A stretch of DNA of 49,500 nucleotides, filler included, from Bipalium vagum (lineage: Eukaryota), in NCBI GenBank assembly GCA_037834085.1. It is 3 parts of 3 records of this genome, joined end to end, with 100 filler letters (N's around TTAATTAATTAA, not from the genome) between each part and the next. Parts side by side here need not be neighbours in the genome. Positions count along the whole stretch, not along the records: positions 1 to 17,432 come from JBBMKC010065653.1; 2 more parts are not named here. One strand, given 5' to 3'. Under the pieces are notes generated by a model, which saw only the letters and a list, made by a program, of their open reading frames with translations, was not told the origin of the DNA and ran no database searches. Each line of letters starts with the position of its first letter. Positions within the stretch are counted from its first letter, which is position 1. The position numbers were made by a program, and so were the translations under genes. Of this stretch, positions 1 through 49,500 are shown one piece after another.

Positions 1-528
1 AAGGACACTTTATAAAAATTTAAAAATTCAAAAATATGTTTAAATACTCATAATGTATATGATTTCTTGATATTATGTATAATTTTTTTTTCAAGACCAG
101 AAAGAAACTATAAATATTTGCAACATGATATAAGGAATTTCTTTTTAAAATTATATTTACTCAATTAAATTTTTTGTTAATCGATGACTAGTTATTTAGT
201 ACCCAAAGAACTTGTGGACATATTGTGATATTTCGAATTCAGCTACTGGTAGTAGAAAGGATGGAAATAAAGAGATTTTTTGTTTTATGTTTGTTTTGAA
301 GAAATATGAAATTGTTGAAAATTACTGTTGTATTGTTATGGACTAAATAAAGGTTTTAGACTTACACGTCTGATTTCCAGTTGTAACACCTAAATCTGCT
401 ACAAGTTCTCAAATTGCTGCATGAGGATTAAACTAGATGTAAGCTTTGATGAATTTACGGCGAATTTAATGAATGAACAAATAAGCACGTAGTGAACATG
501 CAACGTTGGTAAAAATATTTTCGCAGCG

Positions 529-609
529 GAGGTACTATTTTACTTTAACAACCCTGTTTTATAAGCAGACCAATCATAACACACAGTTGTTAAAGTAAAA
601 TAGTACCTC
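529..609. repeat. Perfect 24-bp inverted repeat with 33-nt spacer (hairpin)
   Basis: GAGGTACTATTTTACTTTAACAAC (529-552) is the exact reverse complement of 586-609. Confidence 0.9.
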
Positions 610-2106
610 ATTAATATATTGATATCTGAAATTTCCCATAATCTTCACTGACTACCAGCTTTCTCATCATTATTAAGTTTTCAATGATCACGCTATATTT
701 GGCATAATTAACATTTCTTTATAACGCCATTCATAAAAAGATTTAAGATTTGCCAAGTTTCCAGGCCATTTCAACTTTATTCAAACATCAGAAACATGTA
801 GTATGATTCACATTGATCTTTATCCATGGAGTAGCTTTGGTATTTTTTTCAATTCAACATTTAGTTGTGATGGATATCTATGATCTATGATATCTATTAT
901 CTCTAAATCAGGTATGACAACAGAAAATTGTTCAAACAATCTGCGCTTGGTTTGTGTATGAGAGCGCAAACCCTGATTTAATTTCTGTGAATTTTCTATT
1001 ATTTAGATCAACGATTTGACTTTTAAAGGAATTTTTCAAGTTGTTAACCAATTAAAAAAATTATTACATTTAAACAAGTTTATAATCCTCGAATATATAT
1101 TATACAGACATTATTTTTATATTTTAATGAAGAAATTTTGAAGTTTTATAATTTTAATTTAATTCGAGTTTATAACTAATTCACATTTTTATTTTCTAAT
1201 CATTTTGCTCATATTTTATTTAATTTCTATCTTGGTTCTTCGATCTCTTAGTCATATATAACTATATTTTTGTTATTGGAACCAATTTGCTTATTTGGCC
1301 TATCATTATTGTTGGCCATTTTAAAATTGTTTTCATTCCATATTTCTATTGATATGGTTTTCTACTTTTCGTAGGATGCACAATCAAAACTGAAATGTCA
1401 GAGTTTTTCTTGGAATCAAAATTGAAAATACAATAGGTCATATGTCAGGGTAAGCCAAGAGTGGTAAACTGTCCGTTTCAGGTGAGACTGCAGTTTATGA
1501 ATACCTTAAATATTTTCAAGCATGATTGAAAATATTTTTTTGATTGGCACCTGTGCTATGATATCTTATATTTTCAAACGTTGGTTTTCTTTTAAGAAAA
1601 AATGCCAACATTCACTTAAAAATATTTAACATTTGCAAAAGTAAAATGTGTCTTGGTGTGTTTATATTATATTCATTCTACCTAATCATGTCTCAAACTC
1701 ATAAAAAATTTTAAAAGTCGAATAAAATCTGTCATTGGTTTAAAATATAGGTTTTAAATAATTTTTTGTTCATAAATTTCTAAAAACATTCTCAAAAATC
1801 GAGAGTGAACTCTGGTATATTGACAATAAGTAAAATATTATAAAAGTGAAATTTAGTTTTTAATTTCATTACATTTTATCTTTGAATGTTTATAAGCTTC
1901 ATCGTCGATTGTTAGGTCTATACAAAATACACTTATTATTAGACAATTGATCAATACATTTAGAACTAGGACAGCCAAGTACATTCTTTCGCACTTTTCG
2001 CATTATTTTGAAATATTTATTCATTAATTATTAATTTATTTATTTATTATAATTAATTATTAAGTAATTTAAAAATATTTTTTGATATATTTTAATTAAT
2101 GTTATT

Positions 2107-2700
2107 ATGGAAAGTAAATTTAAATACAATTTTGCTCAAAAGTATTTAGTCACATATAAGAGTGAATTTTACCTTAGCAAATGATAGAAATCTCTTTTGC
2201 AATTTGTGCATGGTCAAAGTAAATCCAGAGCGAAAATCCATTGTTGAGAGTCACCGAAATAATAAAGAAGCATTTCTAAAGGATTAAAGGTTTAATTATA
2301 AACAAACCTAAACATGATTTTGTTCATTTACTAACAAACGTCTTTGTTTCTGGGGATATTTATCTGCATAAACTCCAAAATAAGGAAGCAATTGACTTAT
2401 TCGATTTTATGAATTTATGTGCTTCTAAGAGTTCCTGTTGTCTAATATCACTTAAAGCTGAATGATGAATACATATTAAAAACCTTTTATATAAGAGTTT
2501 GGTGCTTTCTTGTTCATTTACAAGGAATTCTCTGAGAATCAGAAAGTATTATTAAGAAGATCAATAGGATATTTGAATAAAAGAAAGAGCAAAAATTCCG
2601 GTATTTCAAAAAGTCATATTATAGACGAGATAGCGATATGAATCTTAAATAATTCGATCATGAGTTGAAGAAATTTTAAAAACAGTTCAAAATTGTATGA
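2107..2700 (+). mobile_element. Degenerate hAT-like transposase 5' fragment (CGGBP1-like zinc finger)
   Basis: Frameshifted translation LFCNLCMVKVNPERKSIVESHRNNKE followed by HDFVHLLTNVFVSGDIYLHKLQN resembles the CGGBP1/hAT N-terminal region; stops present. Confidence 0.5.
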
Positions 2701-3696
2701 AAACAAGATACAGTTTTTCTAAGAAAATACAATTAATAAAAGAATTCATTGAAGAATTATAGAAACAAAAATGAAACAAAAATTTCTTAATTGGAAACAA
2801 GGAGAGACTTTATATAAGACAGAGAAACCTGTAAAATCCAGAAACTGTGAAAGACATTGAACTCAATGATCTTAACATACCTATTTTCTAGTTTTCAACC
2901 AGTGATGATACCATCTCTTGCTTTTAGACACGAAAAGTTCTTGACACACATTACCCACCTCATCCAAATCATTATTGATACACCCTTTGAGAAAATGTGC
3001 CATTGGCCGAAAAGATAATAATCCTACGGAGCAAGGTGAGGAATAGATACTCGTTGTGATAAAAACTGAACATATTTCAATTATTTGATTTTTTCAAGTA
3101 TCTTTTAATAAGGTTTAAATACATTTTTACATTTCTGATAAATAATTTTTTTCATTAAATTTTGTTTATTTAAATTAATTTTAATGAAAAACACAAATAT
3201 TATTTAATTTACTTTAATATTAGGCTACACTCAATAAATTTTATTTCATAAAAATGAGGAACATTTTAAATCATATATTACATAAATATAATCTGAAAAC
3301 TAATTATTTTTAAAATGAATATTTTCAATGAAATTATTAAAATAAAAATTTAATCAATTTTTAAATTTATCAGGTTAAATTTAGGTAAAGTTGGATAATT
3401 AATAAAACTTTTTACAAAAGAAAATTATAAAAAATACAAAATTGTAAATTTTATAAATAGATAAGTACTTCTTCTTTGACTTCCATCCTATTTAAAACAA
3501 TTTTCTCTATTATTTTATCATACGAAAACATTTGTACATTTTATTAACACTTTTTGCTTTATATTCCATAAGTCAAAGTTATTTTTAATAATTTATTTCT
3601 GACATCACACATTTGAATTTTCACACAAATGTAGTCAAACCATGGGAAGTCTAGCTTTTTTAAATTTTAATAATACATACTTTTTATACATTTATA

Positions 3697-3812
3697 TTTA
3701 AATTATTGAATCAAAATTTTTAAATTATCAAATTCAATTATTTAAATGATTAATATCGATTATTTAAATTATTAAATTCGATTATTTAAGTTATTAAAAT
3801 AGATTATTTTAA
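3697..3812. repeat. ~22-bp AT-rich minisatellite, ~5 degenerate copies
   Basis: Recurrent ATTATTTAAATTATTAAATTCG-like units. Confidence 0.65.
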
Positions 3813-4396
3813 AAATATACTTTGGATTAAATTTTAATAATAATTATTGTTTTAATTATGAAATTAAAAAAATTAACATCTTTATACATCTTTATAAATA
3901 TCATTTGAAAATAAAAATCCATTTTCTGCTTAACATTCAAATAATCATAACTCATACTATTTTTGAATTTTATTAATTTTAAATTGTCATTTAATCATGA
4001 AAAAGATTAACCAGCAAAATTATTTGGATTTTAATGCAGGAACCAGTTTTTTTAGAAAACTTTATTAAGATGATCATTATAAGTTAAACTATGTAATATA
4101 ATTATAACTAAATATTCCCTATTTTATAACATCCTTTATTTATCTTTCTAATTATAAATGGATTAGAGAAAACATTTTTAATCCTCCACTAAAGACCAGA
4201 AATATTATTGTCAAACCTTTATAATTTTTTCTATTCTTAATGGTATAATTAAATAATAACAAAATTATTTCAAAAATTATTTTGCTATACATAAAAGAAA
4301 ATAATAGTATAAAAAATGAATTTTATTAAAATGAAATGTAGATTACATAACTCAGTAAATATGGCAAATGTTGATTAATAAAACAAAACGTGGAAA

Positions 4397-4491
4397 ATTC
4401 AAAATATGTCATCAATCATGATAAAACAGGTGGTGTACTTAAAAGAATTTGAAGAGGCTTCACTAAAGTACTGCACATTTTTGTATATATA
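4397..4491 (+). promoter_or_regulatory. Proximal promoter of paralog A (TATA box 4484-4491 plus motifs shared with paralog B)
   Basis: TTCAAA.TATGTCAT, AACAGGT.G, TTGAAGAGG..TCAC and TTTT.GTATATATA occur in the same order upstream of both paralogs. Confidence 0.65.
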
Positions 4492-4519
4492 CCACCTATG
4501 ATCGAAACCAAGACATAAA

Positions 4520-6536
4520 ATGTTTTATAAAATGCTTAATTACCATTTGAAAGTATTCTTTCTCTTCCTGCTCACGTTTATGGTGATTGAAAGTCTAACG
4601 CACGACCACAAATTACATCACTCCATTACAAAATGTGACAGAGATTGGGCCAGGGCTGACCTAAAATGTGACAAGAAAAGATTCACTCTACAAAAGCAAT
4701 GTAAAAGCGAAAGAAAAGAAGCTCATGAGAAATACGAAAGACGTATGCGAGCAAAGTGTGGTACTGATACCGTTGAACAATGTATCAAAATCGAAGATGA
4801 AATTCATGACGATTTGTCCAAAGATCTGGCATCCATCAGAGAACGTTGTTTCTGGAAATTGGAAAACATTGAAAAAAAGTGCAACAAGTTATTTGAAAGC
4901 ATTGAGCACAGGTGCAACGCTTTGTATGAAAGGTACGGAAAATGTGATCGAATCCGGACTCATAAAATCTTCAAGCATCGAAATCACAAACAGGACAACC
5001 ATAGCCATGAGGCTGATGGCAACAAGTATGATCATTTAAATAATAATATTAATAATTATCATAATCATGATCATTTAAGTAACTTATATATTGATAAAAA
5101 TGAAAAATATAAAGAAAAATTTCCGAATTACAATTTTGATAAATACAAAATAAATTTTACAAATGGCGATTTTTGGAAATATTTCGATAAAGACGGAAAA
5201 TTTAAATTTGNNNNNNNNNNNNNNNNNNNNNNNNNNNNNNNNNNNNNNNNNNNNNNNNNNNNNNNNNNNNNNNNNNNNNNNNNNNNNNNNNNNNNNNNNN
5301 NNNNNNNNNNATTTTGATAAATACAAAATAAATTTTACAAATGGCGATTTTTGGAAATTTTTCGATAAAGATGGAAAATTTAAATTTAATAAATATGACC
5401 TCTCCGATTTTTGGAAATTTGTCGACAAAAATGGAAAATTTAAATATGATAAATACCACTTCCCCGATTTCGGTTTTGATAAATACAAAATAAATTTTAC
5501 AAATGGCGATTTTTGGAAATATTTCGATAAAGACGGAAAATTTAAATTTGGTAAATACGACCTCTCCGATTTTTGGAAATTTTTCGATAAAAATGGAAAT
5601 TTTAAATTCAATAAATTCGATTTTCCCAATTTCGATTTTGATAAATACAAAATAAATTTTACAAATGGCGATTTTTGGAAATTTTTCGATAAAGATGGAA
5701 AATTTAAATTTGGTAAATACGACCTCTCCGATTTTTGGAAATTTTTCGATAAAGATGGAAAGTTTGAATATAATAAATTCGATTTTCCCAATTTCGATTT
5801 TGATAAATACAAAATAAATTTTACAAATGGCGATTTTTGGAAATATTTCGATAAAGATGAAAAATTTAAATATAATAAATACGACCTCTCCGATTTTTGG
5901 AAATTTTTCGATAAAGATGGAAAGTTTAAATATGATAAATACCACCTCCCTGATTTCGATTTCGATAAATATAAAGTAAATTTTACAAACAATTGGTTAA
6001 ATAATTTTGATGTTGAGAAATTTGGAAATTATAATTTTAATAAATATAAATTCCCAAAATTTGATTTTAATAAATATAAATTCCCAAAATTTGATTTTAA
6101 TAAATATAAATTCCCAAAATTTGATTTTAATAAATATAAATTCCCAAAATTTGATTTTAATAATTATAAATTCCCAAAATTTAATTTTAATAAATATAAA
6201 TTCCCAAAATTTAATTTTGATAAATATAAATTCCCAATTTTTAATTTTGATAAATATAAATTTCCAAAATATAATTTTAATAAATATAAATTCCCAAATT
6301 TTAATTTTAATAAAGTTAAAGTGGATAAAAATGAAAAGTTTCATCATGGTTATGATAATAAATTTGATTATATTAATAATGATTACTTAAATGGTCACAA
6401 TAACAATTTTGGCAAGTTTAATAACTTCGAAAAGAACAGTGATTTCCAGTTTAGCAAAGTCAAGGATTCGTTCACATTCAATAACGATAATGATCTATTT
6501 TCTGATAATGATTTCAAAAGGGAAAAACGTTCCTGA
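4520..6536 (+). CDS. Secreted Cys-rich / aromatic-Lys-Asp tandem-repeat protein, paralog A (intronless, spans N gap)
   Basis: ORFs 4520-5317 and 5163-6536 join across a 100-N gap inside a 162-bp repeat array. Hydrophobic signal peptide, 9 Cys, His-rich linker, 54-aa and 10-aa repeats; collinear with paralog B; AATAAA at 6564-6569. Second ATG (4532) aligns with the start of paralog B. Confidence 0.88.
5138..5990 (+). repeat. 162-bp (54-aa) coding tandem repeat, at least 5 units
   Basis: GATAAATA(C/T)AAA unit starts at 5138, 5316, 5478, 5640, 5802, 5964 (162-bp period after the gap). Confidence 0.92.
5211..5310. other. Assembly gap within the repeat array
   Basis: 100 N; repeat phase implies a true size of 84+162k bp. 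Confidence 0.95.
6030..6314 (+). repeat. 30-bp (10-aa FNKYKFPKFD) coding tandem repeat, ~9 units
   Basis: TTTAATAAATATAAATTCCCAAAATTTGAT repeated. Confidence 0.92.
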
Positions 6537-7958
6537 ACATTGTACATTATACTTGTCATGACGAATAAAAATTATATGTGATTGTTTGTATTTTTTAATA
6601 GTTTTGGTGATTAAAGTATTCAACTTGAAAAAAGATTATAGAACAATAGTTCAATTTTTATTAATTTAATGGAACTATTTCTATGAGTCAATTATTTAAA
6701 ATCCTTCTTTTTATAATTTTATCATCAAAATTATATTTAGTATTTCGTTTCAATTTGTTAAGTTTGTCTTTATTTTCATAATAATTGTTAAAATGACCAA
6801 CATATGTACTTAATTTTTAATTTCGAAATTTTTCAAGTTTTCCTATTTCTTAATTTTTAAATTTTTTTTCTTTTTCCCGAATGTTTCAATGTGTGTGATT
6901 TATAATTTTTTCATGAAAATTTCAAGATTTTAAATTTTACTTGGTCTTTTAACACTAATTTTAAAATTTTTATTAAAAAAAATTTTAAATCTTTTAATCA
7001 ATATAATGTATCAAAAAGTATTCATCAATATAATACAACACTTGATTTCAATTAACACTAAATTTTGATTCAATTTCGTGTCATGTATAATATAATTTTA
7101 GATCTTAAAAACGTACAAATAAAATAATCAAATAAATACAAACTTTTATAGTGAGATGGATAAAAAATAATTTCAATAGAAACTTGCATTAATAAACCAT
7201 TGATAATCTCAAAATCAATATTAAATATTAAATAATCGAAATAAAATAGTGATAAACTTTAATTGTGAATCTGTGGTACAGCAATCAGAACTTTAAAAGA
7301 TTTATTGCCTAATATATGTTGTAAAAATATGAAAAGGATATGGCATATTATTTTAATGATTAACAAATTATTCTGCCAATATATTTTGATATTTTTTGAA
7401 ATAAAATAATTTTAATGATCCAAAAATCCTTTTAAAATAATTAATAGTCAGAAAAATAGTTTAAAATTTAATGATGAAATTTAAAACACTAAAATATCGA
7501 TTATTACATTTAAGATCTAAAAATCATAATATAAATTTAACGCAGGCTTATTAATAATTTTCAACATAATTCTGCAATATATTTTAACTCATAAAAAAAT
7601 AACTTCAATTTTTGTAAAAATAATTATAAAATAAAATCCATTTTTAAAATCTTAAATTGAATCAGTTAAATTTTAAAAGAAAAAAGTTTTTTACAAATTA
7701 TCTAGATGAAATTAAAAAAATAACAATTCATTATTTTAAAATAAATAAGATATTTAAAATTGAAATAATATTAACTTCTAGATATGAAAGAAATTATGTA
7801 TATTGTCATTTTACATTTTATTCAAAACCAATTATAATAATAAATGAAAAAGCACAATGTAACTTTAATAATTTTAAAGTTAAATAGATATTTTGGAAGA
7901 AAAAATTTTCAGGATGTGGATGGAATTTTAAATATTAAATACAATTCAAATAGATTTA

Positions 7959-8184
7959 TTGGGTTGTTCGGAAAGTTACTTCGCTTCTTTATACCTATCT
8001 TTAAATCTTAATGTAAAGTAGTTGAGTCATTTTAAAGGTTGGGATAATCAAATTGCCTGGTAGTTCGCAGATAGTCTCGGACCAAAAGGGACAATACATC
8101 ATTGATTAAAATATTTATTATTAAAAAAAACTTTTGGTCTTACTTTTTACTAGAAAATGCGAAGTGACTTTCCGAAAAATCGAA
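7959..8184. mobile_element. Internally deleted mariner / MITE
   Basis: TA-flanked TIRs TTGGGTTGTTCGGAAAGTTACTTCGC ... GCGAAGTGACTTTCCGAAAAATCGAA (4 mismatches); internal remnant DQKGQYIID* typical of a mariner C-terminus. Confidence 0.75.
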
Positions 8185-9572
8185 TAAACTCATACAAACT
8201 TTTAGTGAGATCATAATATATATAATCACCATGTAAATAAACTTATATGCAAATACTTAAAATAACATTGGATAAATTTAATTATTTATTATTATAGAAT
8301 ATGCAAAATCAATAATGTATAAATTTATTTATCATGATTAAGTTCTGATTGTAAATTAAATAAAAATCATTATATAAGTTATAAAACTCATTTACAAATA
8401 GTATTTTTAAAAAAATTATATTAAATAACTTTTGAAAATTTAAAATTTATGTAAAAATAAATAATACAAAAACTTATTAAACGATTCTGATGTCTTTAAA
8501 TTTAAAGACAAAAGAGGTAATGATACATTACAATTAAATTTTAAAAAATCAAAAATATTTTTTTAGAAAAAACAGAAGAAATTAAAATAAAAAAATAGAA
8601 TTAAAGGTATAAATAAAAATATAAAAATTTGAATTGAAGAATATGATAAAGTTTAGGATTAAAATGAAATAATTAAAATAGAAAATAGATGTATAAAATC
8701 GGCTAAACATAATAGTTATCTATATTAACAAGAAAAATTTCATTAACCTCTTTTGATGATATCAGACTAATAAATAATAATGAAATAAATAATTTTTCTG
8801 GTGGATATAAAACAAAGTGTATTAACTTCAATAATTGAGCTTATAAATTGAAACTTAAATGTGGTACAATTTATATATTATATTATAATGCTAAATTAAC
8901 ATTTCATTTGTATTATTAAATTTCTAAAAAAACATAATTTTGTTGGGATCTAAAGAAAGAGATGTCTCAGCACCCGCTGTACCCTTAAAAAATTCAAAAA
9001 CAGAGATCACAAAGGAGTCAGAACCACAACAACCAACCAAGAGCTGATGGACAGTGATCCCCCACATCTCATTATTGACATGTAACAATTTATTAATTTT
9101 AGTGAATGTGCATGAAAAAGCCTTATTAGGCTTATTTTCATTTTTTATGGACTCCATATGTAATTTTATGTGTCACTTTATATTTTATCAAAAATAATAA
9201 TATTTAAATTATACATTTGTTTTTAATTAAAATAAATAAATATAAGAATAAAATAAATTGTGGGTTGAAGTTAATTAAAACTTAACCCATAAAATGAATT
9301 AAAAATATTTAAAATGAGTGATAATGGTTCAAAAAATGAAACTTACTATAAATACATTAATATGAGTGAATATTAATATGCAGGTGAATATATTTCGTAA
9401 GTTCTATAATATAAGAACTTTCCTAAAATATCAAAAACCGACATATTACTCTATTAATGGAAAGTTTTATTTTAAACCAATCAAGAGATCAGGAATGTGA
9501 AAATCAGGAGTATATAAACTCTTGGTTTTCGCATTCAATAGACACTCTAACTTCACATCGACAAGTTAGCGC

Positions 9573-9783
9573 TACTAGTAAAAGATAATATTAAATATGC
9601 TTCGGGTATTTAAAAAACATATCGATCTCTTTTGAGCAAAATTTAAATAATTAAATAGTAATCTACAATTCAGAGCAATACTCTACAATGTAGATTGCTA
9701 TTTAATTATTTAAATTTTGCTCAAAAGAGATCGATATGTTTTTTAAATACCCGAAGCATATTTAATATTATCTTTTACTAGTA
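9573..9783. repeat. 211-bp near-perfect palindrome (95-bp arms, 1 mismatch, 21-nt loop)
   Basis: 9573-9667 is the reverse complement of 9689-9783 except T9659/G9697. Confidence 0.95.
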
Positions 9784-10694
9784 ATATTAAAAAATACTCT
9801 GCAAATACTCTGCAATAAATTCTTTTTATTATATTTCTTTGTTTCCATTTTTGTTTTCTTCACATTTTTCCTATATAGAAATAAAATCAATACTTATTAG
9901 TTTCTAAAATAAATAAATCCAAAATTAGATAATAATTAGAAACTGATAAATGCGACCACTACCTAACCTCACATTGAAAATTTAAAATTTCAGTAAGGCA
10001 TGGTTGTATTTAAAATTTTTAGTTACTTTAAAAAGTCATTTAAAAGAATTTTTAATTAACATTTAAATTTGATTTTCATCTCATTAAACAAAACAGAATG
10101 GAATTAAACCTTTTAACCATAAGAAATCAGTAATAAAATAGATATTAATGTTTTTAATGAACTACCTGGAAATGATATAATATATAGAAAACAATAAAGC
10201 ATAAACAGTTTTATTAATATAAAAATTGAAAAATCAATTATTAAGTATTTAATCAAAAAAATATTCAATATCTTTTATTATAACAACTAAAAAAGTCATA
10301 TTATTTTTAAATTAAAAATTCTATTAATATTAGATCTAGATTTTAATTATGAATTAGTTTTAATATATTAACTTTAAATATCTTCTGAAGTTTGGTTAAT
10401 GTTTCATAATATCCCATTATTTAAAATATGAAATCACGTGGGATACTTATTTTTCTTCAGACTACTCGTGCCAAGAAATTAAGAGTAATATTATAAGTAA
10501 ACATGTTCCATCTTATGAAGGAATCTTAAATTATAAATAGGCACACTATCATTACTTAAATTTTTCGAATTATCAAAACACTTAAGCTGTCTTTGATTAT
10601 TCAGTAGTACGAATTTTAAAAAATAACATTTTTAAAACAACACAACAATTCATTAATACTTTTTATTCGTTATAACAAGTATAATGTACAATGT

Positions 10695-11843
10695 TCAGGA
10701 ATGCTTTCCCCTTTTGAAATCATTATCAGCAAATATATCATTATTGTCATTGAATGTGAACGAATCCTTGACTTTGTTAAACTGGAAATCATTGTTCTTT
10801 TCGAAGTTATTAAACTTGTCAAAATTGTTATTCTGACCATTTAAGTAATCATTATTAATATAATCAAATTTATTATCATAACCATGATCAAATTTTTCAT
10901 ATTTATCAACATTACCATTATCAAAGTCTGAATTTTTATCAAAATTAAAATTGCCCGTAAAATCGCCATTTGTAAAATTTACTTTATATTTATCGAAATC
11001 AAAATCGGGGAAATCGTATTTAGTATATTTAAATTTTCCATCTTTATCAAAATATTTCCAAAAATCGCCGTTTGTGAAATTTATTTTATATTTATCGTAA
11101 TCGAAATCGGGGAGGTCGTATTCATTATATTTAAATTTTCCATCTTTATCGAAATATTTCCAAAAATCGCCATTTGTGAAATTTATTTTATATTTATCAA
11201 AATCGATATCGGGGAGGTCGTATTTATTATATTTAAATTTTCCATCTTTATCGAAATAAGAAACACTTAAGGGATCATGATCATGATAATTAATATGATT
11301 TAAATGATCTTCTGAAGCATAATCAACATTACTGTGATAATCGTCATAATCAGTATAATCAATCTTATTACGGTATTTCTCACGTATCTCACTTTGGTGC
11401 TTGAATATTTTATGAGTACGGATTCGATCACATTTTCCATATTTTTCGTATTGAGCTTCACACCTCTCATCAAGACTTTTAAACAGCCAGTCACATTTGT
11501 TATCAATGTTTTCAAATTTCGAGAAGCAATGCTTTCGGATGGATTCCAGATCCTTGAGCAAATCGCCATATATTTCATCTTCGATTTTTATGCATTGTTC
11601 GACAGTTTTAGTACCACATTCCACATTCATACGTCTTTCATATCTTTCATGGGCTTCTTCTCTGTCACCTTGGCACTTCTTGTGTAAAGTAAATCTTTTC
11701 TTGTCACACTTTATGTCAGCTCTTGCCCAGTCCCTGTCGCACTTTGTAAGAGAATGGTATAATTTGTGGTTATGCTTCTGACTTTCAATGGCCACAACTA
11801 TGAACAGAAATAGGGAGAATATTTTCAAATGAAAACTAAACAT
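10695..11843 (-). CDS. Secreted Cys-rich / aromatic-Lys-Asp tandem-repeat protein, paralog B (382 aa, intronless)
   Basis: Complete ORF; signal peptide; same 9-Cys spacing as paralog A; ~3 copies of a 34-aa (102-bp) repeat; conserved tail and 3'UTR with AATAAA (10662-10667 on - strand). Confidence 0.92.
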   Translation of the reverse strand: MFSFHLKIFSLFLFIVVAIESQKHNHKLYHSLTKCDRDWARADIKCDKKRFTLHKKCQGDREEAHERYERRMNVECGTKTVEQCIKIEDEIYGDLLKDLESIRKHCFSKFENIDNKCDWLFKSLDERCEAQYEKYGKCDRIRTHKIFKHQSEIREKYRNKIDYTDYDDYHSNVDYASEDHLNHINYHDHDPLSVSYFDKDGKFKYNKYDLPDIDFDKYKINFTNGDFWKYFDKDGKFKYNEYDLPDFDYDKYKINFTNGDFWKYFDKDGKFKYTKYDFPDFDFDKYKVNFTNGDFTGNFNFDKNSDFDNGNVDKYEKFDHGYDNKFDYINNDYLNGQNNNFDKFNNFEKNNDFQFNKVKDSFTFNDNNDIFADNDFKRGKHS

Positions 11844-11882
11844 CGTTAAAAATTATTTATTTCTTGTTAGTACCACTGCACT

Positions 11883-11990
11883 TATATATACCAAAAAGTA
11901 GTGGATTTTGTGAGACCTCTTCAATTCTTCTTATATGTAAGTAGGCGACCTGTTGCTCGTTGATTTTGAAGTTATGACATACTTTGAATA
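11883..11990 (-). promoter_or_regulatory. Proximal promoter of paralog B (TATA 11883-11890)
   Basis: Same ordered motif set as upstream of paralog A; TATA ~40 nt from the ATG. Confidence 0.65.
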
Positions 11991-12199
11991 TTTTCTAAAT
12001 TCTTAAGTGTGAGTTGAATGGTTACCATTCAGCAAATATGATTGCAATTATTTAATATTTATTTCACATTAAATTTCTTTTTATTTCTTTTATTTTTATG
12101 ATTAATTATGATTAATAAAATTTTTTGTTCTTAAATAAATTAAAATTTTAATTAATAATTTCTAATTTTAATTTTAAATACTTTTGTAATTTAATAATA

Positions 12200-12282
12200 A
12201 TAATGAACAATTAATAATTAATAATAAATAATAATAATAAACAATAATAAATAATAATAATAAATAATAATAAACTAATAAC
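12200..12282. repeat. Imperfect (AAT)n microsatellite
   Basis: Direct reading; similar tracts at ~32778-32810 and ~39103-39133. Confidence 0.7.
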
Positions 12283-12749
12283 ATTAACCTTTAATATACA
12301 TATCTCAAAAAATTGCTTATCACTATACATTTTGAAGCTGAATTTACTTTCTAAAGTGATTCCGGCAGTGATCAGATTAATTTCACTTAAGTCGAAAAAT
12401 TTATATATAATAGATTAGAGATTCTTTCAAAATAACGGGAATGAATCAATTGAACAAAATGAAAATATTTAACCAGTGTTCAGTTTATCTCTTCAAATTA
12501 AATTCATCATGTATGGATGGACTAAAGCCTAAAATTTTCTCATTCGTCAAATATTGACTTAAATTCTTTATAGCAAAATTGCTTTTGAATTTTCTTTAAG
12601 GGTATCAGTAGACGTAAATCAAGGAAATATTAAAAGCAAATCAAAGATTGATTTATTGATATAATTTAGTTTTTTTAAAAATTTGATGTTTAATCTTTTC
12701 AAATTAACAACAAACATAAATTATTAAACTGGCAATTTCATATTTTTAG

Positions 12750-13345
12750 CAATCGACATGGCAGCATATGAGCTATCAAAAGAAATTTTGAAGTATTCCA
12801 TGCCTTAATTATTCAATTTGAAGAAAACTGCAGGTGAAAGACAACTGCTCTTACTTCTTGTCAAGACACCTTTAAATGATGGTTTGACCGATTTAGAAAA
12901 GATGATCGTAACTTTAGAAAAGTAACGCTGAAATCAACAGAAATAAATTTATAGCTCGAAATTGGAAGCCATCTTAGAAGAGGATAATATCCAAACATAG
13001 AAACAGCTAGTTAAGCGGTTGAATAATTCTCAACAAGTCATTTGCGACCATCTATATGTAAAATGGGAAAGTTTTAAGTTGAAGGAAAATGATTTTCACA
13101 TAGATTGAATGAGAAAATGGAGAAACCAAAAATAATTTGCGAAATCTGATTAAGAAAGTAATGTTTACATCGCGTAATAAAAGACGAAAAAATAATGGAT
13201 TTACTTTGATAATTGTAAACGCAAAAGATCGTGGGTTTATCCGGAACAAATAACCACTTCCATTGCAAAGTGCAATATTCATGAACAGAAAGCTTTATTA
13301 TACATCTGGTGGGACCAGAGAAGGGTAGTCTTCTGTGAGATAGTA
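12750..13345 (+). mobile_element. Decayed mariner transposase
   Basis: Fragments WFDRFRKDD and NIHEQKALLYIWWDQRRVVFCE (mariner LCVWWD motif); many stops and frameshifts. Confidence 0.7.
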
Positions 13346-14759
13346 ATCATTATTAGTAGATGGTAATCAATATGCATTAAAATTACTGAAAATGAAGAAA
13401 CTGAAGAATCTTTAATAGAACTTATAAATAATGGGTCAATGCTTATACAAATGGAGATTGCTCCGGTTTTTATAGTGATATGGCTTCATACATTCCAAAA
13501 GGTATGAGCAAGGAACTTATTAATGAATAAATGTATTTCTGTTTAAATTTTTTTAACGTTACGAACATATACCTGTTGTAATTAACATGTTTTCTAAATA
13601 GATTTTTACGGTGTCAAAATAGAATTTTACAATGTCAAAAAAACTTAACCTTGACAAAATCGAGGTGGAAATGGTGTAATAACATTTGAATATTTTTAAA
13701 AAGTTTTTCAATTAAAAAAGAACATAAAAAAAGAAAGATAATTCACAAAATCTCATCTGTAACTTTTACTTAGTCCATACTTGTTTCCCACTAGACTCAA
13801 ATCTTCTTTGGGATCTATACGTGATTCTTGGTGCAACTGATAATAAAATCGATAAAAAATAATTTATAACCACTCGCAAGAAATAGTAGTCAATTTCACT
13901 TCTTTAATGGTTTCACAACTAAACAAATCTTTTGCTATTAGGGTCTTATCTTCTAATTGATTTTTTAGTAGTCCGACCAATCAGATCGCGTACTCATCAA
14001 ATTAAGAAAAATTATTTCTTTTTAGAGAAACTATAAAATTATCAGAATGAGTAATTATCGACTCTAGGATTAGTCTAATTTTAGAACTATTCGGGGCATT
14101 AATTCTATTGATAAATATTGCCACAAGATATTATTCTCTTCTCAATTTTTTGTTGATTATTAGGTATTATGATCTTGGAAACCGGATAATACTATTAATT
14201 CTGATTGATATCAAAAACAAACAATTGAGCTGAACTAATGTTTGATTACCAAAGTTCCAAAATGGGCCAAGAAGCATAGTAAAATCATTTCCTATTGTCG
14301 TAATCTGACTGAGGAAATCATCTCCTTTTTATAGTAAATTCAATAACCTGCCGGTCATTCCAGTTGTTGGTGGTTAAAAATTAGGTTTTGAAAGACCTGT
14401 TTTATTTTTAAGGAGAATTTTAGGTTATTTCAAGGTACTTCAGGTAATTTAATTTCATGAAAAAATGATTTATTCCCTTAAATATATCGGAGAACAATTA
14501 CTTGGGAGAACAATTATCCGTTGATTCTCATAAAATAAATTGTACCTAATTAATTTATTATTATTATTAGTTAATTCTCGTTGTTATTATTATTGGTTTA
14601 TTATTTAATAAATTATTATTATTTTTTTTATTATTATTAGTAGTAATCAGAAAAAACAATTTATTCAAAATTCACCATAAGAATGTCAATAATTTCATAT
14701 TTAATCATAAATCAAGATGAAACAACTGACCCACATATGAAAACATGGTCAAACATTTT

Positions 14760-15080
14760 TAGTTTGGCATATAAAAATTATGTTTAAGACCAAGAAATAC
14801 CGTTTCTTATCACTCATTTTGTAAGCAACGCCAATGATATTTGTTACAGAGTACTTGAACTCCTGATTATAAAACCACATATATCTCTTACAGAATTTGA
14901 AAAGTGATTGATCAAGAGACCAGATTTGAAGTGAGAGAAAGCTTTTCATGGTACACAAAGCTTGTCATGTTTAAAGCGGTTAAATCGGTGATAACTCTGA
15001 AAGACATATGCCAGACAAATGAAATATGGAAGGTAGTAAGGAGCACACGAATTCTATTGTATTTCTAAACATCCTGGTGT
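14760..15080 (-). mobile_element. Possible decayed mariner fragment
   Basis: Weak WVP.EL-like and SDKKR.F (TGDEKW-like) remnants. Confidence 0.35.
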
Positions 15081-16419
15081 CTCTAAGGAAACAGTTTTTA
15101 TTAAACTTTCCAGAAATAAATGAAAAATTTAGCAAATGAAGAGAAACAATTTGTGACAGTCATGGTTCCATCGATAAAAGATGTGGAAAACATAATTAAC
15201 TGAACATTCAGAAGCTGTATAAGATTATTCACAAAATTATAATCATTTTCTTCATAATAATATTAATAATAATTAATAATATTATTATTAATATTAATAA
15301 CAGTAATGACAATAATAAAATATTCTTTTCTATGTTAACTAAACTATTTATTTGCACAGATCTTCAAGTTTAATCTGACATTTCACAGAAATTACATTTC
15401 CTTAATAATTCCATAGTCTCAATAATTAGCCTGCTTCAATATTAATGAATTCTGCGTTCCAATTTCATCGGCATTTCGGTGATGATTGATCATTAGAAAT
15501 ACCTATTGCCACAAAGTCACATTCTCCCGAAGGACAAGCCATTTCTTTAAAATATCATTTCTGATTACTTCAAGAGTATATCTTATTGAGGTAAGAAGTC
15601 CAAAGTTTCCCCGACTTGACATACGACACTTCTATGGACGTTTAATGCTTTTTTCTTTTATTGGGTTTTTAATTCATTTGGAATGGCTTCGTATATTATT
15701 TTTCTAAACGTTCTTAATTATCCTCTTATTCGCTCTGTCCTTCAAAAAAATGTCGTTTTTTCCTTTTCAAAAAGATTTACAAATGACAAAGAAAAAAGAT
15801 TTCGAAATTTTCTTTTGAAAATATTTTCTGCATTAAACTTTGATCAGTTCAATGAAGTCTAATGTCAAAGGTTCGTTGCACATCACCTCTTTGAGAATAT
15901 TAGAGGTAGAGTGATCACTTTCTGATATTTTTACCGAACTAGGTGACTTAGATGAACTAGTTGACCAATTTTCGAATGACGGATTTGGTTTTATTTTTAA
16001 ACTAGGTCAACTATGTCATAATTATTTATCATTACAGTAATATTACAGTAATTACTCAACATGTTTCATTTGTAAATTAAAATGTTTTTATTTCTCTTCT
16101 TCTTCGAATCATTACCTGTCACCAAAGGTTCTGATTTAATTTTCTAACAATGATATATTAGATGAAATTTGGACCACAAAGTAACATTTGGTGTTATTTC
16201 TCTCAGTTTTACATAAACGGAATTGAATGCTTCACTTGTAAAAAAAAATAAAAGGTATCTAGGCCATCAAAAAGAAGAATATCAAGAATTTATAAAAGAT
16301 GACCAAGTTGGTATGAAGTAGTTGGTTGTTTTGTCAATAGCCAGTTAGCTCAATGTACTTTGAGAGAAAAACCTTTGTCTTTATAATAAAATTTTTTTGA
16401 AAAATTTTAACTATTCCTA

Positions 16420-16850
16420 GTTGACAGAGTCACTGACCCAGTTTAGTTTTACATCTGATTTGACCTGGTTTAATTTTTAAAATGAGCCAAATCTTAGATC
16501 TCAATTTGTCAGAAAGCATTTGAATCAACTGAAGGATACGTTTCCATTGCCATTAAATCACAATTGAGAATATTAGGTACGGAGCATAAGACCATACCAA
16601 AACTTTCAAATATATTATTTATCGAAGTTCTTCCGTATCCATCTTACAGTCCCGATGCCGCACCATCTGACTATGAACTTTTTCACTCAATACAAGGGGA
16701 GCTGTCACATTGTCCTTAGATCTCTGAAACCCAGTCTAAACGGGAAAAGTTCAACTCTGTACAGGAATATGAAAAATACATCGTTCAATTTTCTACAGAA
16801 TAAATCAAAAAATTTCTCAGTCATGGAACAATGACTCAAGTGAAAAATAG
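16420..16850 (+). mobile_element. Decayed mariner transposase 3' fragment
   Basis: IEVLPYPSYSPDAAPSDYELFHSIQGEL matches the HPPYSPDLAPSDY motif. Confidence 0.75.
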
Positions 16851-17432
16851 AAAAAAATTACTTTTGCAAAAAGTGTTTTTGTTGTTTCTTCTACTTTTCC
16901 ATTTGACGTTTTACTGTTTGTATAAGATACGAAGAGGTTTTAAAAACATTGTTTTAAATTTACAAAGGAAAATGCCAATGAAGACGTAATGTAAGAGAAG
17001 AGAAGGAATGCATAAAAACACCTCAACTACTAAAACCTTTATTTTGAAAATTTACAATTCTTCTGGAGTACCTCATTGGCAATTTTCTTAAATGCTCTTC
17101 GTTTTAAATCTTTGTTTACAAGAAATAGTTCTCAGTTTCAAAGAACTGAAAAGCAAAAATAGATCTTTCTTTTTCAATCTTATTTATATTTTGATTTACC
17201 TACTGATCCTTATGGTACCCTCTGGTACATCTATTAAGGTGAGTAAATATTATAAAAAATAAATAAAATAAAATAAAGAAATAAAATAAATAAATAAATA
17301 AATAAATAAATATTATAAGTAAATATTCGCTAATAAAATATTCTCACGGTCAGTGCTATAGCGCGTAAAGAAATGATAAGGTCAATCATATTTTTCAATT
17401 AATTTAATGAAGGCATGACTTTAAATCAAAGT

Positions 17433-26939: not shown

Positions 26940-28960
26940 GGTAGAAGTATTGATCATCAGTTGCCACTACTTGTTCCCATCCTTCAGGTAGGCTACAGAT
27001 TCCATTTGGAAAAATTTCCTGATTTTTTGAGGAGATTCAAAAATCGAGCCATTTTATGGTGTCATCATAAGAACGAAACTGCTGGTCACCGAGACCATGT
27101 GACATATCTGGGAATACGGCGGGCAAAGTAAGATTTCCCATCCTAAGGTTTCTATGTGTGTAGTAACTAGTTTATCTTTTATTGCTTGGCTTAAATGCAT
27201 CAATTGGAGTTGATAGCGATCTCCTTTGATTGTATCGTTCAGTTGCAATAACTCATAATATAGTTAACCTAACTGATCCCACCAAACGGATAGTATGACC
27301 TTTTGACCATGAATGTTTCGCTTGGCCGTCGATGTAGAAGTATGACCGGCCTCTCCCCATGATCTTTTTCGCTTAGGATTACTGTAGTACAGGGTAGTAA
27401 CTTAATGATTTTAAATAATAGTAAAAAGTAAATATTCCAGACAATTATTTATTTTGAATATTATGCATAAACAATAATTCACGGAGATGTTTTTAAACTA
27501 GAATTTGAAAATTATATCCTTCAAATGACCACCACTTTCTGCCTCACAAAATTTGGCTCTTTTTATAGAGTTTTCCATGACACCTGCTAAAACTTTCGGG
27601 TTTATTGCTTTAATATCGTCACGAATATTGTTCTTTATTTGTTGAATGAACTTTGGCTTATTGATATATACTTTATCCTTCAGATATCCCTAAAGAAAAT
27701 AATCTAGTGCTGATAAATCTGGTGAACGAGAAGGCCAGTTGAATATCGAATTTCTGGAAATTATCCGATTATAGAAAATCTCACGTAAGAGTGCTATAGT
27801 ACGTTTCGTGGTGTGTGTGGTGGCTCCATCTTGTTGAAACCACATCAGTTCATTGTCAGCAACCGCAGGAAGCAAATATGTTTTTATCATATCCCGATAT
27901 CGCTCAGCATTTATGGTTACAGCAACCCCATTAACATCCTCAAAGAAATATGGCCCTATGATCCTTTCATATGAAACACCTCACCAAACTGTGCATTTCA
28001 TGGAATTCATTTCTCTCTGGTGAACAGCCCTTGGATTTTCAGATCCCCATATTCTATAATTTTGCATGTTGACAAATCTATTCAGACTAAAGTGGATTCA
28101 TCACTCATTATCAAATTCTGCAGGAAGTTTTCATTTGCAAGTGCCATTTCTTGAAATTTCCGGACATAGGTTAATATTTGTTGTTGGTCTGCCTGCTTCA
28201 AACATTACACCTATTGAATTTTGTATGGAAACAATTTTAGTTCCCTTACCAGAATTTGTTATAAGGATTTTCGAGAAATGCCTAATTGCAAAGAACGTCT
28301 TCGATTTGATCTTTCTGAGTCCTCCGCAATACTTTCAATAATAATAACATCTTTATTTCTGGTTTGGCACGGTCTTCCCTATCTTTGCAAATCGTTTACC
28401 GAACCCTGGCCCCAGGAACGTTTAATTACTTGCATAATCATAAAGGCTGTTGGTGGCTTCTTAACATTGAAATGTTTGCAATATTTACGTTGAGTTCGGA
28501 TTATTGAATTATTGTTTTGAAAATAAAATTCCACGATTTTCGTTCGTTCAGATATTGTATATCTTTGTGACAGTAATTTCCTGGAATCCATTTTTATATC
28601 TACAATTATTTCAAAATAAATAAATATTGATTGTATTTTTTATGAAGTTTTAAATTTATTAATTAACTTTTGTACCACCCTGTATATCCATTTTTCATAC
28701 TCCGTAACAATCCGATGAAAGAAAGACGTTGAAGCAATTGTTCACAGATACACAAACGACGTTCCACGTCTCTCGGTCCTAATTCGTATAGCACCAATAT
28801 TTCTAGTTTCTGAATCATTAACATTGCTTGTAAACGTTTGGCCACGGTAGAACGATCGACTCTCAATGATATTGACATTCAATCTTGTGTTTGATATGAA
28901 TTTTAGCTCAGCAAAGTCTTCAATTCTTCATCACCAAACCTTTTTGGGTGCCGAAATCAG
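26940..28960 (-). mobile_element. Mos1-like mariner pseudogene interrupted by a nested element
   Basis: RSTVAKRLQAMLMIQK..YELGPRDVERRLCICEQLLQR, RIVTEYEKWIY|YSNPKRKRSWG..IHGQKVILSVWWDQ, WEILLCPPYSQ; reading continues seamlessly across the insertion at 27390-28682. Confidence 0.85.
27390..28682 (-). mobile_element. DD41D (rosa/Visitor-type) Tc1/mariner element, full length, non-functional
   Basis: TA|CAGGGTAGTA ... TACCACCCTG|TA ends; transposase from ATG 28591 with WFQQDGA-...-SPDLSALD (41 residues between D2 and D3); frameshifts and stops. Confidence 0.88.
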
Positions 28961-34391: not shown

Positions 34392-37300
34392 CCCATAAAC
34401 AATATGCATCAAAGCAGAATTATGATTTGTCGTTCCATCACTGGAAATTGTATCAAGTTCGTCTAAAGGACAGGCTGCACAAACAACATTTCCATATTTC
34501 CAGTGCACTTCCCTTTCCAGTATTATAATGTGTTGATACATCTATCAATAAAAATAAACACGTCTAAAAAATAATAAACGTACTTCTTTTCTACCAAGTT
34601 TAGCAGCTAAAGTCAAAGGTGTTAGTTGAAGTTTATTTTTTATGTCTAAGCGCGAGTTTTTCTCAACTAACAAATCAAACATTCTCTTAGCTACCTATTT
34701 AAAATTCACCGCTTATTTCATTATTATTATCAAAAACCTCTATATCCATTTTATTTGAATGAATAACCAACATATGTAATGCAGTATTCCCATTATGGTC
34801 TTGTAATGAAATATCAGCACCTTTGGCAATAAGTAATCTTATGCATTCTTCTTGTCCACAACATGCGGCAAAACTTAGAGGGGTTTCACCCCAGTACACG
34901 TGTCCTTCATAATTAGTATTAGAGTTTAAATTTAATAGCTCCGAGTCCATTCTATATGTATAAATATGTTTTTGATCTTCTGGTAAAAAGAATTTTCCAA
35001 AACATCGTTGATTTACATTTGCATTATGATCCAATAAATATTTTACCAAGGTTGGTTCTTCATTTGATATAGCAATATGCAAAGGTGTTTCCCCTAATTC
35101 GTTTTTATAACTTAAATAGAATTATTATTTTACCGTAATATTCTTCAGATATGTAGTAGTCATTTACAAGTTTTGGGAATATTTTAATAATCCTTTTAGC
35201 TAAATCATAGTGGGTTGGAGTGGCACTGAGAAAACAAAAATGAAGAAGTGTTTCTCCTGCTGATCCCCTTTGTTCAATATCCCAGCAAACGTCCCGATAA
35301 GATGGTTCTGAAATGTGTAAAATTAAGAAAAACTTAAAAATGTCATATTTACTATTATTTAAATTATAATTGATCCAATAATTATTGATCCAATATAATT
35401 ATAATTATAAAGGATGAGTTTTTTGTAACTTTAAACACTAACAGTTCAGAAACATGAAATTGTTTAGTTTTGTTTAGCTGTACTCGTGTGAGTTTTGTGT
35501 ATTATTTCAAATTATTGCATAATTATTTTCGTTTTAGTGAATTTATTTTTTGTTAAGTTTGATAAGATTTCAGAGGTTGTTAAATTATTTATTATTTTAT
35601 TAAAACGTTTTATTCGATATTTTTCATTAATGAAATTTTCTTTTACTGGACTAACTTGTTAAAAATTATTTTGTTAATTAAATTAACTTCATTTTAAAAT
35701 TTTCACTTAAGATATTTAAATATCATAATTTCTTCAACATAATTATATAAAGATTTTTATGTTTTGCACAAATGCTATTAAGTTCTTACATGGTTTATAA
35801 CCTCATTTCAAATTTTTGTAAATAAATTTCGAAAATAAACAAATTTCAAAAAATAAAAATAAGAAAATGTATTACATATATTTATATATAAACATTTAAT
35901 TATCATAGATGGGCTCCTTATTATTAGGAATTTAAACATGTGTCTTTAATAAGAATTACAATCATCAGCGCCTATTAAATTTCCTACGTTGTCGATCAAT
36001 CCAAATAAATCTTTTTCTTTTTCAGGACGAGCTTGTCTGATGCTTTGTTTCCATTTTGAGAATAAGTTCTCAATAGGATATAGAAACGGAGAATAAGGAG
36101 TCAAAAACAATACCCTATGACCCCCTTCTTCTACCATTTCACGTATGACTGTCGATTTGTGGAATGGAACATTGTCCATTATGATTACCACAGATCCATG
36201 TTCTCGAATCTTTTGCTATTAATTCGGTTATAAACTCTTGAAATGTAATCGTGTTATATGCAGTCGTTTGTGCATGATAATGCACAATTCCATTTTTATT
36301 CATTGCGCAACAGACGGAGATGTTATGTGACCACAATCCACGTACAACATGAATTGCTCTCTTTCCACATAATGATCTTCCTTTTCTTGAACGCATGGAT
36401 ATATTGAAGCCTATCTCATCATCGAAGAACAATTTTGATTCATCATATTAATCTATTTAAAAAGCATTGTGCATATTTTGCTCTATCATCAAATGGTCTT
36501 TTATTATTTCTTCTTACCGGCATTAACGAAATATTCATAAATGTATAAGAAAATAATAATTATTACATTATTATTTAATTACATAAAAAAGGATAATTAT
36601 GCATAGTTTTCACGCATACTGAAATATTAAACTTTTCTCTTTATCTGGATCTTAATGCTTCAACAGTTATGCCAGCATCTTCGTCCATCCAAAACTTTAA
36701 TGCATTGACATGTTCCGTGTTTAATGATTTAATATTTTAACATACCTTTTAATTTATGCTCAATACGATTTTCATTTACATAAATTTTCAAAACGGAATA
36801 AATCGTTGATAAATTAACATTTAATATATTCGAAATTTCCTTTTTCGAATTTCCTTTATCATGGGCATCAATTATTCTTTGTTGTATGTCATTTGTAAGC
36901 ATGCTAAATAACAAATTACATGTAAAAGTATGTAAAATTAAAAATGTTATACAATGTATAAAATGTAAGCTTGCTTTTCAATTTTAATTATGTAAATTTT
37001 GAGATATGCAAATAATAAATTAGTCTAATTAGTGTAATTAAACAATGTAGCTGAGAAAATATGTATTTGAAATGAGATTACAAAAATTTGAAATGAGGTT
37101 ATAAACCCTGTAAAATACGAGGAAATTTTCAAGTACAACTCAGGGTTATGATGAGAACTGAACTTTTCAATCTTAGTAAACATTTTATAATCCAACACAT
37201 TTTTTAAAATTTTTCAAAATTAAATAAAATTTTTCAAAATTAAATAAAATTTTTTACAATTTCATGAGTAAATATGAATTTTTGGTAAGAAATTTTAGGA

Positions 37301-49148: not shown

Positions 49149-49500
49149 GTAAGTACAAAGTATTTATTGATATAGCAAGATTTCTATTTTCCATTTATTT
49201 TAACAATACACATTGATCAAATTGCTTTTCTTTTGTCAACATTTTACAGAATAAAAAATTTTGATGATCTAATCCAAGATATGCACTGCCTACACTTAAT
49301 ATATTGATTATTTTATAATAGATAGTTGGAAATTATAAATTTTAAGTGTTTGAAGAATTACATTTCCACTTCCTCAGTTGTATTATCATAACAAATTTCA
49401 AATGCCATGCTTATAATCGAGAAATAAAAATAAAAGAGAAAAAATATAATCGAGAAAAAAATAGTAATAATAATAAAAAAAATTAAAATAAAATAAATAA

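What the first reader, a model, noticed from the sequence alone, without database searches (positions are those of the whole stretch)
4634..4980. Symmetric cysteine ladder with 11-residue periodicity: predicted disulfide-stapled helical hairpin with one spare Cys
Both paralogs have identical spacing C-x10-C-x10-C-x18-C-x7-C-x21-C-x10-C-x10-C-x9-C in a charged, Pro-free sequence. The mirror symmetry around the C-x7-C turn suggests an antiparallel hendecad coiled-coil with C1-C8, C2-C7, C3-C6 and C4-C5 bonds. That leaves one odd Cys for intermolecular A-A or A-B linking. The motif KCDR opens and closes the domain.
Basis: partly seen in the sequence, partly recalled or inferred. Interest (0 to 1): 0.7.

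Follow-up and report, generated by a model that had tools for sequence, protein, structure and literature searches.

The report
Cysteine-zipped hairpin of planarian PROG proteins
Two neighbouring flatworm genes encode likely secreted relatives of the planarian skin-precursor marker PROG-1 whose regularly spaced cysteines are predicted to zip two long helices into a rod, leaving one cysteine that would likely link molecules together; this gives a testable structure to a much-used marker family whose molecular job is unknown.

Summary
In detail: both paralogs have Cys spacing 10-10-18-7-21-10-10-9, rare by chance (3 of 200,000). They belong to a large planarian family: 48 complete ladders were found in this genome, and a Schmidtea protein shares the nine-cysteine layout. 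The same ladder is visible in the published PROG-1 alignment (read by eye). AlphaFold gives two long helices with the turn between C4 and C5; fold hits are antiparallel hairpins (37, 84); the core pattern is hendecad a/e/h (70). Arm length and rung losses change on both arms together, supporting C1-C8, C2-C7, C3-C6, C4-C5. C9 is spare because the family's first cysteine was lost (16 of 16). Corrections: symmetry is inexact (18 vs 21), KCDR is just the repeat start, and Pro-free is not family-wide. Disulfides, dimers and expression are untested. New here: the structural model for PROG proteins (not found in ten paper searches), the odd-cysteine subgroup, and a long Phe/Lys/Asp/Asn repeat tail found only in these two genes. 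The scan had not noted this before.

The parts
4484..4491 (+). TATA-like box of gene A
   Evidence: TATA core invariant in 5 of 5 paralog upstream regions aligned; function inferred
4520..6536 (+). Gene A, single reading frame on each side of an assembly gap; at least 637 aa
   Evidence: end matches the end of gene B; continuity across the gap is inferred
4520..4594 (+). Likely signal peptide of A (start may be the Met at 4532; cleavage after I-E-S)
   Evidence: hydrophobic N-terminus and the -3,-1 rule, judged by eye; no predictor available
4601..4759 (+). Predicted helix 1 (residues 28-80) carrying C1, C2, C3, C4
   Evidence: AlphaFold H2-54 of model mbf2b2f968ff1
4760..4771 (+). Predicted turn between C4 and C5
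4772..4936 (+). Predicted helix 2 (residues 85-139) carrying C5, C6, C7, C8
   Evidence: AlphaFold H59-113
4943..4945 (+). C9, the cysteine without an intrachain partner
   Evidence: invariant in 16 of 16 subgroup members; ancestral partner lost; lies past helix 2 in a block of pLDDT 60
4970..5104 (+). Asn/His-rich linker of A
   Evidence: 24% Asn, 18% His
5211..5310 (.). 100-N assembly gap inside the tandem repeat of A
5311..5989 (+). 54-aa Phe/Lys/Asp/Tyr/Trp repeat (162 bp, 4.2 copies after the gap)
6026..6314 (+). 10-aa repeat (30 bp, 9.6 copies), A only
10695..11843 (-). Gene B, 382 aa, convergent with A, 4.2 kb away
11430..11741 (-). Cys ladder of B (C35 to C138)
   Evidence: hairpin predicted from the single sequence, pLDDT 70-89
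10959..11258 (-). 34-aa aromatic repeat tail of B (102 bp, 2.9 copies)
   Evidence: pLDDT under 50
11882..11890 (-). TATA-like box of gene B

Best explanation
The region encodes the cysteine-ladder domain of two likely secreted planarian PROG-superfamily proteins, predicted to fold as one antiparallel two-helix rod that four disulfides would likely zip shut, with the ninth cysteine likely bonding to a second molecule. Each 11-residue repeat puts Cys at position a and hydrophobic residues at e and h (shown); in the hairpin the layers would be a-a' (disulfide), e-h' and h-e' (inferred). Bonds C1-C8, C2-C7, C3-C6, C4-C5 (inferred, about 0.8) give a stiff, highly charged rod about 8 nm long (54 residues x 1.5 A). 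C9 lost its ancestral partner but was kept, and sits on a flexible segment past helix 2, so it likely makes homo- or heterodimers or ties the rod to another secreted protein (about 0.5). The Phe/Tyr/Trp-Lys-Asp-Asn tail is likely unstructured and would make the dimers condense or stick. By analogy with PROG-2-5 the proteins are likely epidermal granule cargo released into the surface coat (about 0.65).
For: Fold: 12-sequence AlphaFold model, mean pLDDT 86.6, pTM 0.70, H2-54 and H59-113, five models 83.5-86.6; single-sequence model of B gives the same two helices and turn; top structural matches are antiparallel hairpins aligned symmetrically about model residue 58-59, e.g. 5izs 17-100 rmsd 1.6, Rad50 hook 7-109; C4+C5 centre on 58 and the other three pairs on 59.5. 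Paired change: of 52 complete domains, the rung next to the turn is present on both arms in 22, absent on both in 30, one-sided in 0; in the 36 domains outside the nine-Cys group both arms span equal rung numbers (4+4, 5+5, 6+6) and 33 of 36 have an even Cys count, against 14 of 16 odd inside it. Two S. mediterranea rows in Almazan Fig. S6C lose a further rung on both arms (spacing 21,21,10,21,21, by eye). Spare C9: the first repeat of all 16 subgroup members scores closer to the family's second repeat than to its first; C1-to-C9 span of L010 equals the second-to-last-Cys span of L028 (108 each); C9 invariant 16 of 16, including S. mediterranea X1.D.D8.3. Family link: a profile of the other 36 domains scores A 31.1 and B 37.0 bits; 0 of 300 Cys-fixed shuffles each reach that (max 20.4, 25.7); HHalign 96.9% to L028 and 98.4% to 19 other members; L028 matches row SMU15040084 and L032/L040 match GdPROG1-L3 by eye. 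PROG-2-5 is processed and found in epidermal granules (10.1101/179986).
Against: No model coordinates were visible, so S-S distances were not measured. The 18-residue gap puts C4 off the ladder face, so the end of helix 1 must fray. The paired rung loss may be a single event (one clade not rejected, p-AU 0.30), and the ORF filter required ladder-like spacing, which favours regular members. One-sided losses exist: P0003 lacks C7; 2 of 13 rows of Fig. S6C lack the second turn Cys. Six close relatives (L003, L004, L006, L007, L008, P0003) have a Cys 13-14 residues before C1 that I assigned to the signal peptide by eye; if it stays in the mature chain they are not odd, and L005 has a real tenth Cys. 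The hydrophobic register scan ties offsets 0 and +-11 (0.51, 0.51, 0.49) and shows nothing in PROG-1-type members. The link to named PROG genes is by eye, not computed. The nine-Cys group as one clade has support 68/78 only. Tissue and function rest on analogy; PROG knockdowns gave no phenotype (PMC5750089 section 3.3).
Confidence: 0.5

Rival explanations
1. Same hairpin and four disulfides, but C9 is a relic or is capped (cysteinylated, glutathionylated, metal-bound); the proteins act as monomeric rods.
For: Only positions a, e, h are hydrophobic, so there is no second packing face; PROG-2-5 ran near its monomer size on Westerns, reducing conditions not seen; L005 has an extra N-terminal Cys that could pair with C9.
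Against: C9 is invariant in 16 of 16 members down to 18% identity and follows an invariant Gly; in 5 members it is the second-last residue; free thiols are usually selected against in secreted proteins (general knowledge).
Confidence: 0.27
2. Register shifted by one repeat: C1-C9, C2-C8, C3-C7, C4-C5, with an 11-residue bulge in arm 2 and C6 spare.
For: HHalign to the 5+5 members places C1 on their first Cys, C9 on their last, and an 11-residue insertion after C5; hydrophobic layers tie at +11.
Against: Helix 2 is predicted continuous and equal in length to helix 1; C1 is homologous to the family's second Cys in 16 of 16; collinearity with 6+6 members needs no 11-residue indel.
Confidence: 0.08
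3. The hairpin is a disulfide-braced bioactive scaffold (deterrent, antimicrobial or signalling) like the helical-hairpin toxin B-IV of ribbon-worm mucus, and not a structural coat protein.
For: Large, diverse, secreted, taxon-restricted family with a fixed Cys frame; rhabdoids have been proposed to carry a noxious taste (10.1101/179986); B-IV is a four-disulfide helical hairpin (PMC6410017).
Against: Near-neutral net charge, no exposed hydrophobic patch pattern, strong purifying selection, long low-complexity tails in these and other members; a planarian mucus/toxin preprint gave no passage on such a family for the terms searched.
Confidence: 0.1
4. The helices open and pair between chains (domain-swapped antiparallel coiled coils), so the ladder itself cross-links filaments.
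For: An 11-residue ladder is self-complementary at +-11; members with a 10-residue turn spacing keep the phase straight through (five members with all spacings 10).
Against: In A and B the 7-residue, Gly/Thr/Asp turn breaks the phase and is predicted as a turn in all runs.
Confidence: 0.05

Closest known systems
Planarian PROG family (prog-1/NB.21.11e, prog-2/NB.32.1g, PROG-2-5; PMC4507787, PMC5750089, 10.1101/179986)
   Same: N-terminal signal-like segment, Lys-rich, conserved Cys and Asp, coiled-coil with internal repeats, many paralogs, opposing gene pairs; SmedPROG-1 ladder reads 10,10,21,7,21,10,9 with one extra off-ladder Cys (by eye), a spacing found in 12 domains of this genome.
   Different: One more rung on arm 2 and loss of the first Cys, leaving C9 spare; 18-residue gap; 382 and at least 637 aa against an average of 179 aa, owing to an aromatic repeat tail. 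No fold or disulfide model in the passages read.
S. mediterranea X1.D.D8.3 (AHD24757.1, P0006)
   Same: Nine Cys, 10,10,21,7,21,10,10,8; E 3.9e-08 against the subgroup profile.
   Different: 18% identity to A, exact 21/21 symmetry, no tail; no paper found under that name.
Neurotoxin B-IV of Cerebratulus lacteus (1VIB; PMC6410017)
   Same: Secreted helical hairpin cross-linked by four disulfides.
   Different: 55 residues, no 11-residue ladder (its Cys spacing is recalled, not checked), no sequence match; analogue only.
Twin CX9C / CHCH hairpins (recalled)
   Same: Helix-loop-helix with rungs of disulfides.
   Different: 9-residue spacing, two rungs, mitochondrial; no Pfam match.
Apolipoprotein 11/22-mer helices
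   Same: 11-residue period; weak matches to apoA-I (E 0.11) and apoA-IV (Z 8.8, rmsd 2.6, 110 aligned).
   Different: No broad lipid-binding face (3 of 11 positions hydrophobic), Cys ladder; scores at background.

Membership tests
Planarian PROG superfamily | Sequence similarity to PROG-1/PROG-2 homologs | tested here: met
   Indirect: computed link to L028 and other genome members; link of L028 and L032/L040 to rows of the published PROG-1 alignment is by eye. No named PROG sequence was returned by a tool.
Planarian PROG superfamily | Conserved Cys and Asp positions | tested here: met
   C13 D14 C24 D25 C35 C54 C62 C84 C106 C116 invariant in 16 of 16; spacing matches Fig. S6C.
Planarian PROG superfamily | Lys-rich (10-19%) | tested here: met
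   14.8% and 13.9% in the domains against 10.1-19.1%.
Planarian PROG superfamily | N-terminal signal peptide | tested here: inconclusive
   Hydrophobic N-terminus with a -3,-1 site by eye; no predictor on hand.
Planarian PROG superfamily | Coiled-coil and internal repeats | tested here: met
Planarian PROG superfamily | Restricted to planarians | tested here: inconclusive
   Of 8 hits in 1.84 billion proteins, 4 are clear relatives (1 named S. mediterranea, 3 unnamed), 1 is a tandem relative, 3 are repeat artefacts.
Planarian PROG superfamily | Expression in epidermal progenitors, storage in epidermal granules | not testable with these tools
   Needs in situ hybridisation or antibody.
Hendecad (11/3) coiled coil | a/(d)e/h core with period near 3.67 | tested here: met
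   e 84%, h 76% hydrophobic in 62 units; peaks 3.62-3.70 with Cys counted, low power at 3.5; without Cys arm 1 of A and B shows no clear peak.
Twin CX9C / CHCH | Two CX9C motifs, no ER signal | tested here: not met
   Spacing is CX10C with four rungs; no Pfam hit.
Nemertean B-toxins | Sequence or fold match to B-IV | tested here: inconclusive
   Not among 23 sequence rows at E up to 1 nor the listed fold rows; unlisted is not excluded.

The most novel reading that the evidence does not exclude
PROG proteins, the classic planarian epidermal-lineage markers, are a flatworm-specific modular material: disulfide-zipped hendecad rods whose length is tuned by adding or removing rungs on both arms at once (4+4, 5+5, 6+6), and the nine-cysteine subgroup uses its spare terminal cysteine to dimerise rods that display self-assembling aromatic/charged tails, building the covalently linked surface coat or glue released from epidermal granules.
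Probability: 0.25. Interest if true: 0.7.

Novelty: new variant of a known kind. Interest (0 to 1): 0.47.

Why it matters
prog-1 has been a standard lineage marker since 2008, yet the papers read call its molecular function unknown and note only a signal peptide, coiled-coil and some conserved Cys/Asp. A specific fold and bond map makes the family testable by ordinary biochemistry, explains the conserved residues, gives a rule (odd or even Cys) for which members could cross-link, and offers a natural example of a long coiled-coil hairpin stapled every 11 residues that could interest protein and biomaterial designers.

Tried and rejected
Pfam: nothing at curated cut-offs for 4 window proteins; Colipase-like/GDNF hits in 3 and 2 of 19 other members are Cys noise. 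Word-indexed protein searches: 0 of 25, 1 of 290, 0 of 110 candidates passed. ESM Atlas: no usable hit, and one unnamed cluster at 0.77. PDB sequences: 23 rows, none under E 0.1. Foldseek: none at E 0.001; VIA best Z 10.6 and 10.4, within background for helical bundles; no disulfide-laddered hairpin was listed, which excludes nothing. No RNA holder listed. The complex predictor was not available, so there is no verdict on dimers. Register scan uninformative modulo 11. P0007-P0009 rejected as repeat artefacts. CRASP rejected from its abstract (eight helices). Rows dropped before counting: 4 truncated ORFs (L054, L070, L077, L082) of 56; hits failing the spacing filter or split by stops (e.g. 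L013, L038, L068, L069, L080, L081, L088-L096); upstream and signal-peptide Cys and one tail Cys (L040) removed by hand. Insect silk or DNA-puff proteins were an early recalled guess, dropped once the Schmidtea hit appeared. Zhu 2015 supplements held names but no PROG sequences for the terms searched; its alignment figure and the bioRxiv supplements could not be seen and may already show the Cys pattern.

Full report
Observation. The window is a pack of three stretches; the finding lies in the first (1-17432, contig C65653). Gene A starts at 4520 (+) and gene B runs 11843-10695 (-). Both have nine mature Cys spaced 10,10,18,7,21,10,10,9, no Pro in the domain, KCDR at C1 and C9, and 77 of 108 identical residues. 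Random placement gave 5 or more ladder spacings in 3 of 200,000 trials. dN/dS is 0.083 with dS near saturation, and a TATA core is conserved upstream in 5 of 5 paralogs aligned, so these are likely real genes.

Family. Single-protein searches of the own genome gave 13, 9, 10, 32, 12 and 32 matches. After a spacing filter 52 distinct ORFs remained; with four outside proteins that made 56, and dropping four truncated ones left 52 complete domains, 48 from this genome. A profile search of 1.84 billion proteins gave 8 hits; one is named X1.D.D8.3 of Schmidtea mediterranea and has the same nine-Cys layout. The text of Fig. S6C of PMC5750089 shows, by eye, SmedPROG-1 with ladder 10,10,21,7,21,10,9 plus one extra Cys, a row closely matching L028 and one matching L032/L040. 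The window domains link to those genome members beyond Cys spacing: 31.1 and 37.0 bits against a profile of the 36 non-subgroup domains, with 0 of 300 Cys-fixed shuffles each reaching that, and HHalign probabilities 96.9% and 98.4%. The organism is therefore a planarian and the genes are PROG-superfamily members at domain level; the last link to named PROG genes was not computed.

Fold. AlphaFold with 12 sequences gives H2-54, a four-residue turn, H59-113, mean pLDDT 86.6; mature B alone gives the same hairpin with pLDDT 70-89 over residues 11-110 and a tail under 50. Structural matches are generic antiparallel hairpins, at background Z for helical bundles: they confirm the shape and name no relative. 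In 62 subgroup and 216 other 11-mers only a (Cys), e and h are core-like, a 4-3-4 pattern that is palindromic and so suits antiparallel pairing. Periodicity peaks at 3.62-3.70; without Cys, arm 1 of A and B has no clear peak.

Connectivity. No coordinates were visible, so pairing is inferred. The predicted turn centres on C4/C5, and the three outer pairs share one residue sum. Across 52 domains the rung beside the turn is on both arms in 22, on neither in 30, on one in 0, though that may be one event (p-AU 0.30). Arm spans are equal in all 36 non-subgroup domains and vary together (4+4, 5+5, 6+6); 33 of 36 are even. Two published rows lose a further rung on both arms; two others lose one turn Cys alone, and P0003 lacks C7. 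The filter favoured regular ladders and signal-peptide Cys were removed by hand.

The spare cysteine. In 16 of 16 subgroup members the first repeat resembles the family's second repeat, so the family's first Cys is gone and its partner, C9, is left over; C9 and a Gly before it are invariant. 14 of 16 are odd; L005 has a tenth Cys nine residues before C1 and P0003 lost C7. For six members oddness depends on a Cys at the likely -1 position of the signal peptide; A, B and the seven 21/21 members do not depend on that. A shifted register with C6 spare is suggested by one alignment but needs a bulge that the models do not show. Whether C9 forms an intermolecular bond is untested.

Tail. A carries at least 4.2 copies of a 54-aa unit and 9.6 of a 10-aa unit, B 2.9 copies of a 34-aa unit; 32% and 27% Phe+Tyr+Trp, no Cys. 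All 8 matches to the tail in the genome lie in these two genes (6 candidates scored).

Mechanism. Likely: secretion, oxidative zipping of a two-helix rod, covalent dimerisation through C9, and condensation or adhesion through the tail, as epidermal granule cargo. Shown: sequence pattern, family link, selection. Predicted: hairpin. Inferred: bond map, spare C9 use, tissue, tail role.

Literature seen. 10.1101/179986: passages and sections 10, 11, 19, no figures or supplements. PMC4507787: passages and supplement search rows. PMC5750089: passages, section 3.3, supplement list, Fig. S6 text. 10.1101/2025.01.09.632098 and PMC6410017: passages. PMC4596865: abstract. Ten searches listed no paper proposing a hairpin or disulfide model for PROG proteins; subscription papers and figures were not searched. 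CHCH features, B-IV spacing and the signal-peptide rule are recalled.

Verdict. Real feature, largely correct structural guess, known family. New variant of a known kind; interest 0.47, carried by the testable model for a long-used marker family.

Noticed in passing
P0010 (Logan, 378 aa): Four tandem eight-Cys ladder domains behind one signal peptide: a multi-hairpin form of the family.
   Followed up: no
L035:151-2025, L037:835-2016, L005:871-1953: Other ladder proteins carry different low-complexity tails (Thr/Lys mucin-like repeats; Asn/Asp/His), so tails are swapped freely onto the rod.
   Followed up: no
L033, L035, L037, L041, L051: Twelve-Cys members in which even the turn spacing is 10, so the 11-residue phase runs unbroken; hairpin versus extended helix is open.
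   Followed up: no
L019:629-1639: One rung Cys is displaced by six residues while the count stays at 12.
   Followed up: partly
G000 contigs C170116, C209886, C14569, C210695, C144174, C125132: Family members occur in local clusters of two or three, some in opposite orientation.
   Followed up: no
L071-L078, L077, L082, L083: PROG-1-type members whose frames lack a start codon or have an interrupted N-terminus, likely an intron; A and B look intronless.
   Followed up: no
window 45711-46040 and 48805-49152 (+): Calpain exons (Pfam Peptidase_C2), on another stretch of the pack.
   Followed up: partly
window 34699-35398 (-): Ankyrin-repeat exons that look like a TRPV channel (recalled, not tested).
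   Followed up: partly
window 27690-27980, 35946-36447, 40770-41084: Broken Tc1/mariner-like transposase fragments, judged by eye.
   Followed up: no
window 6519-6536 and 10695-10712: Both genes end in a basic motif (KREKRS, KRGKHS), a possible convertase site.
   Followed up: no
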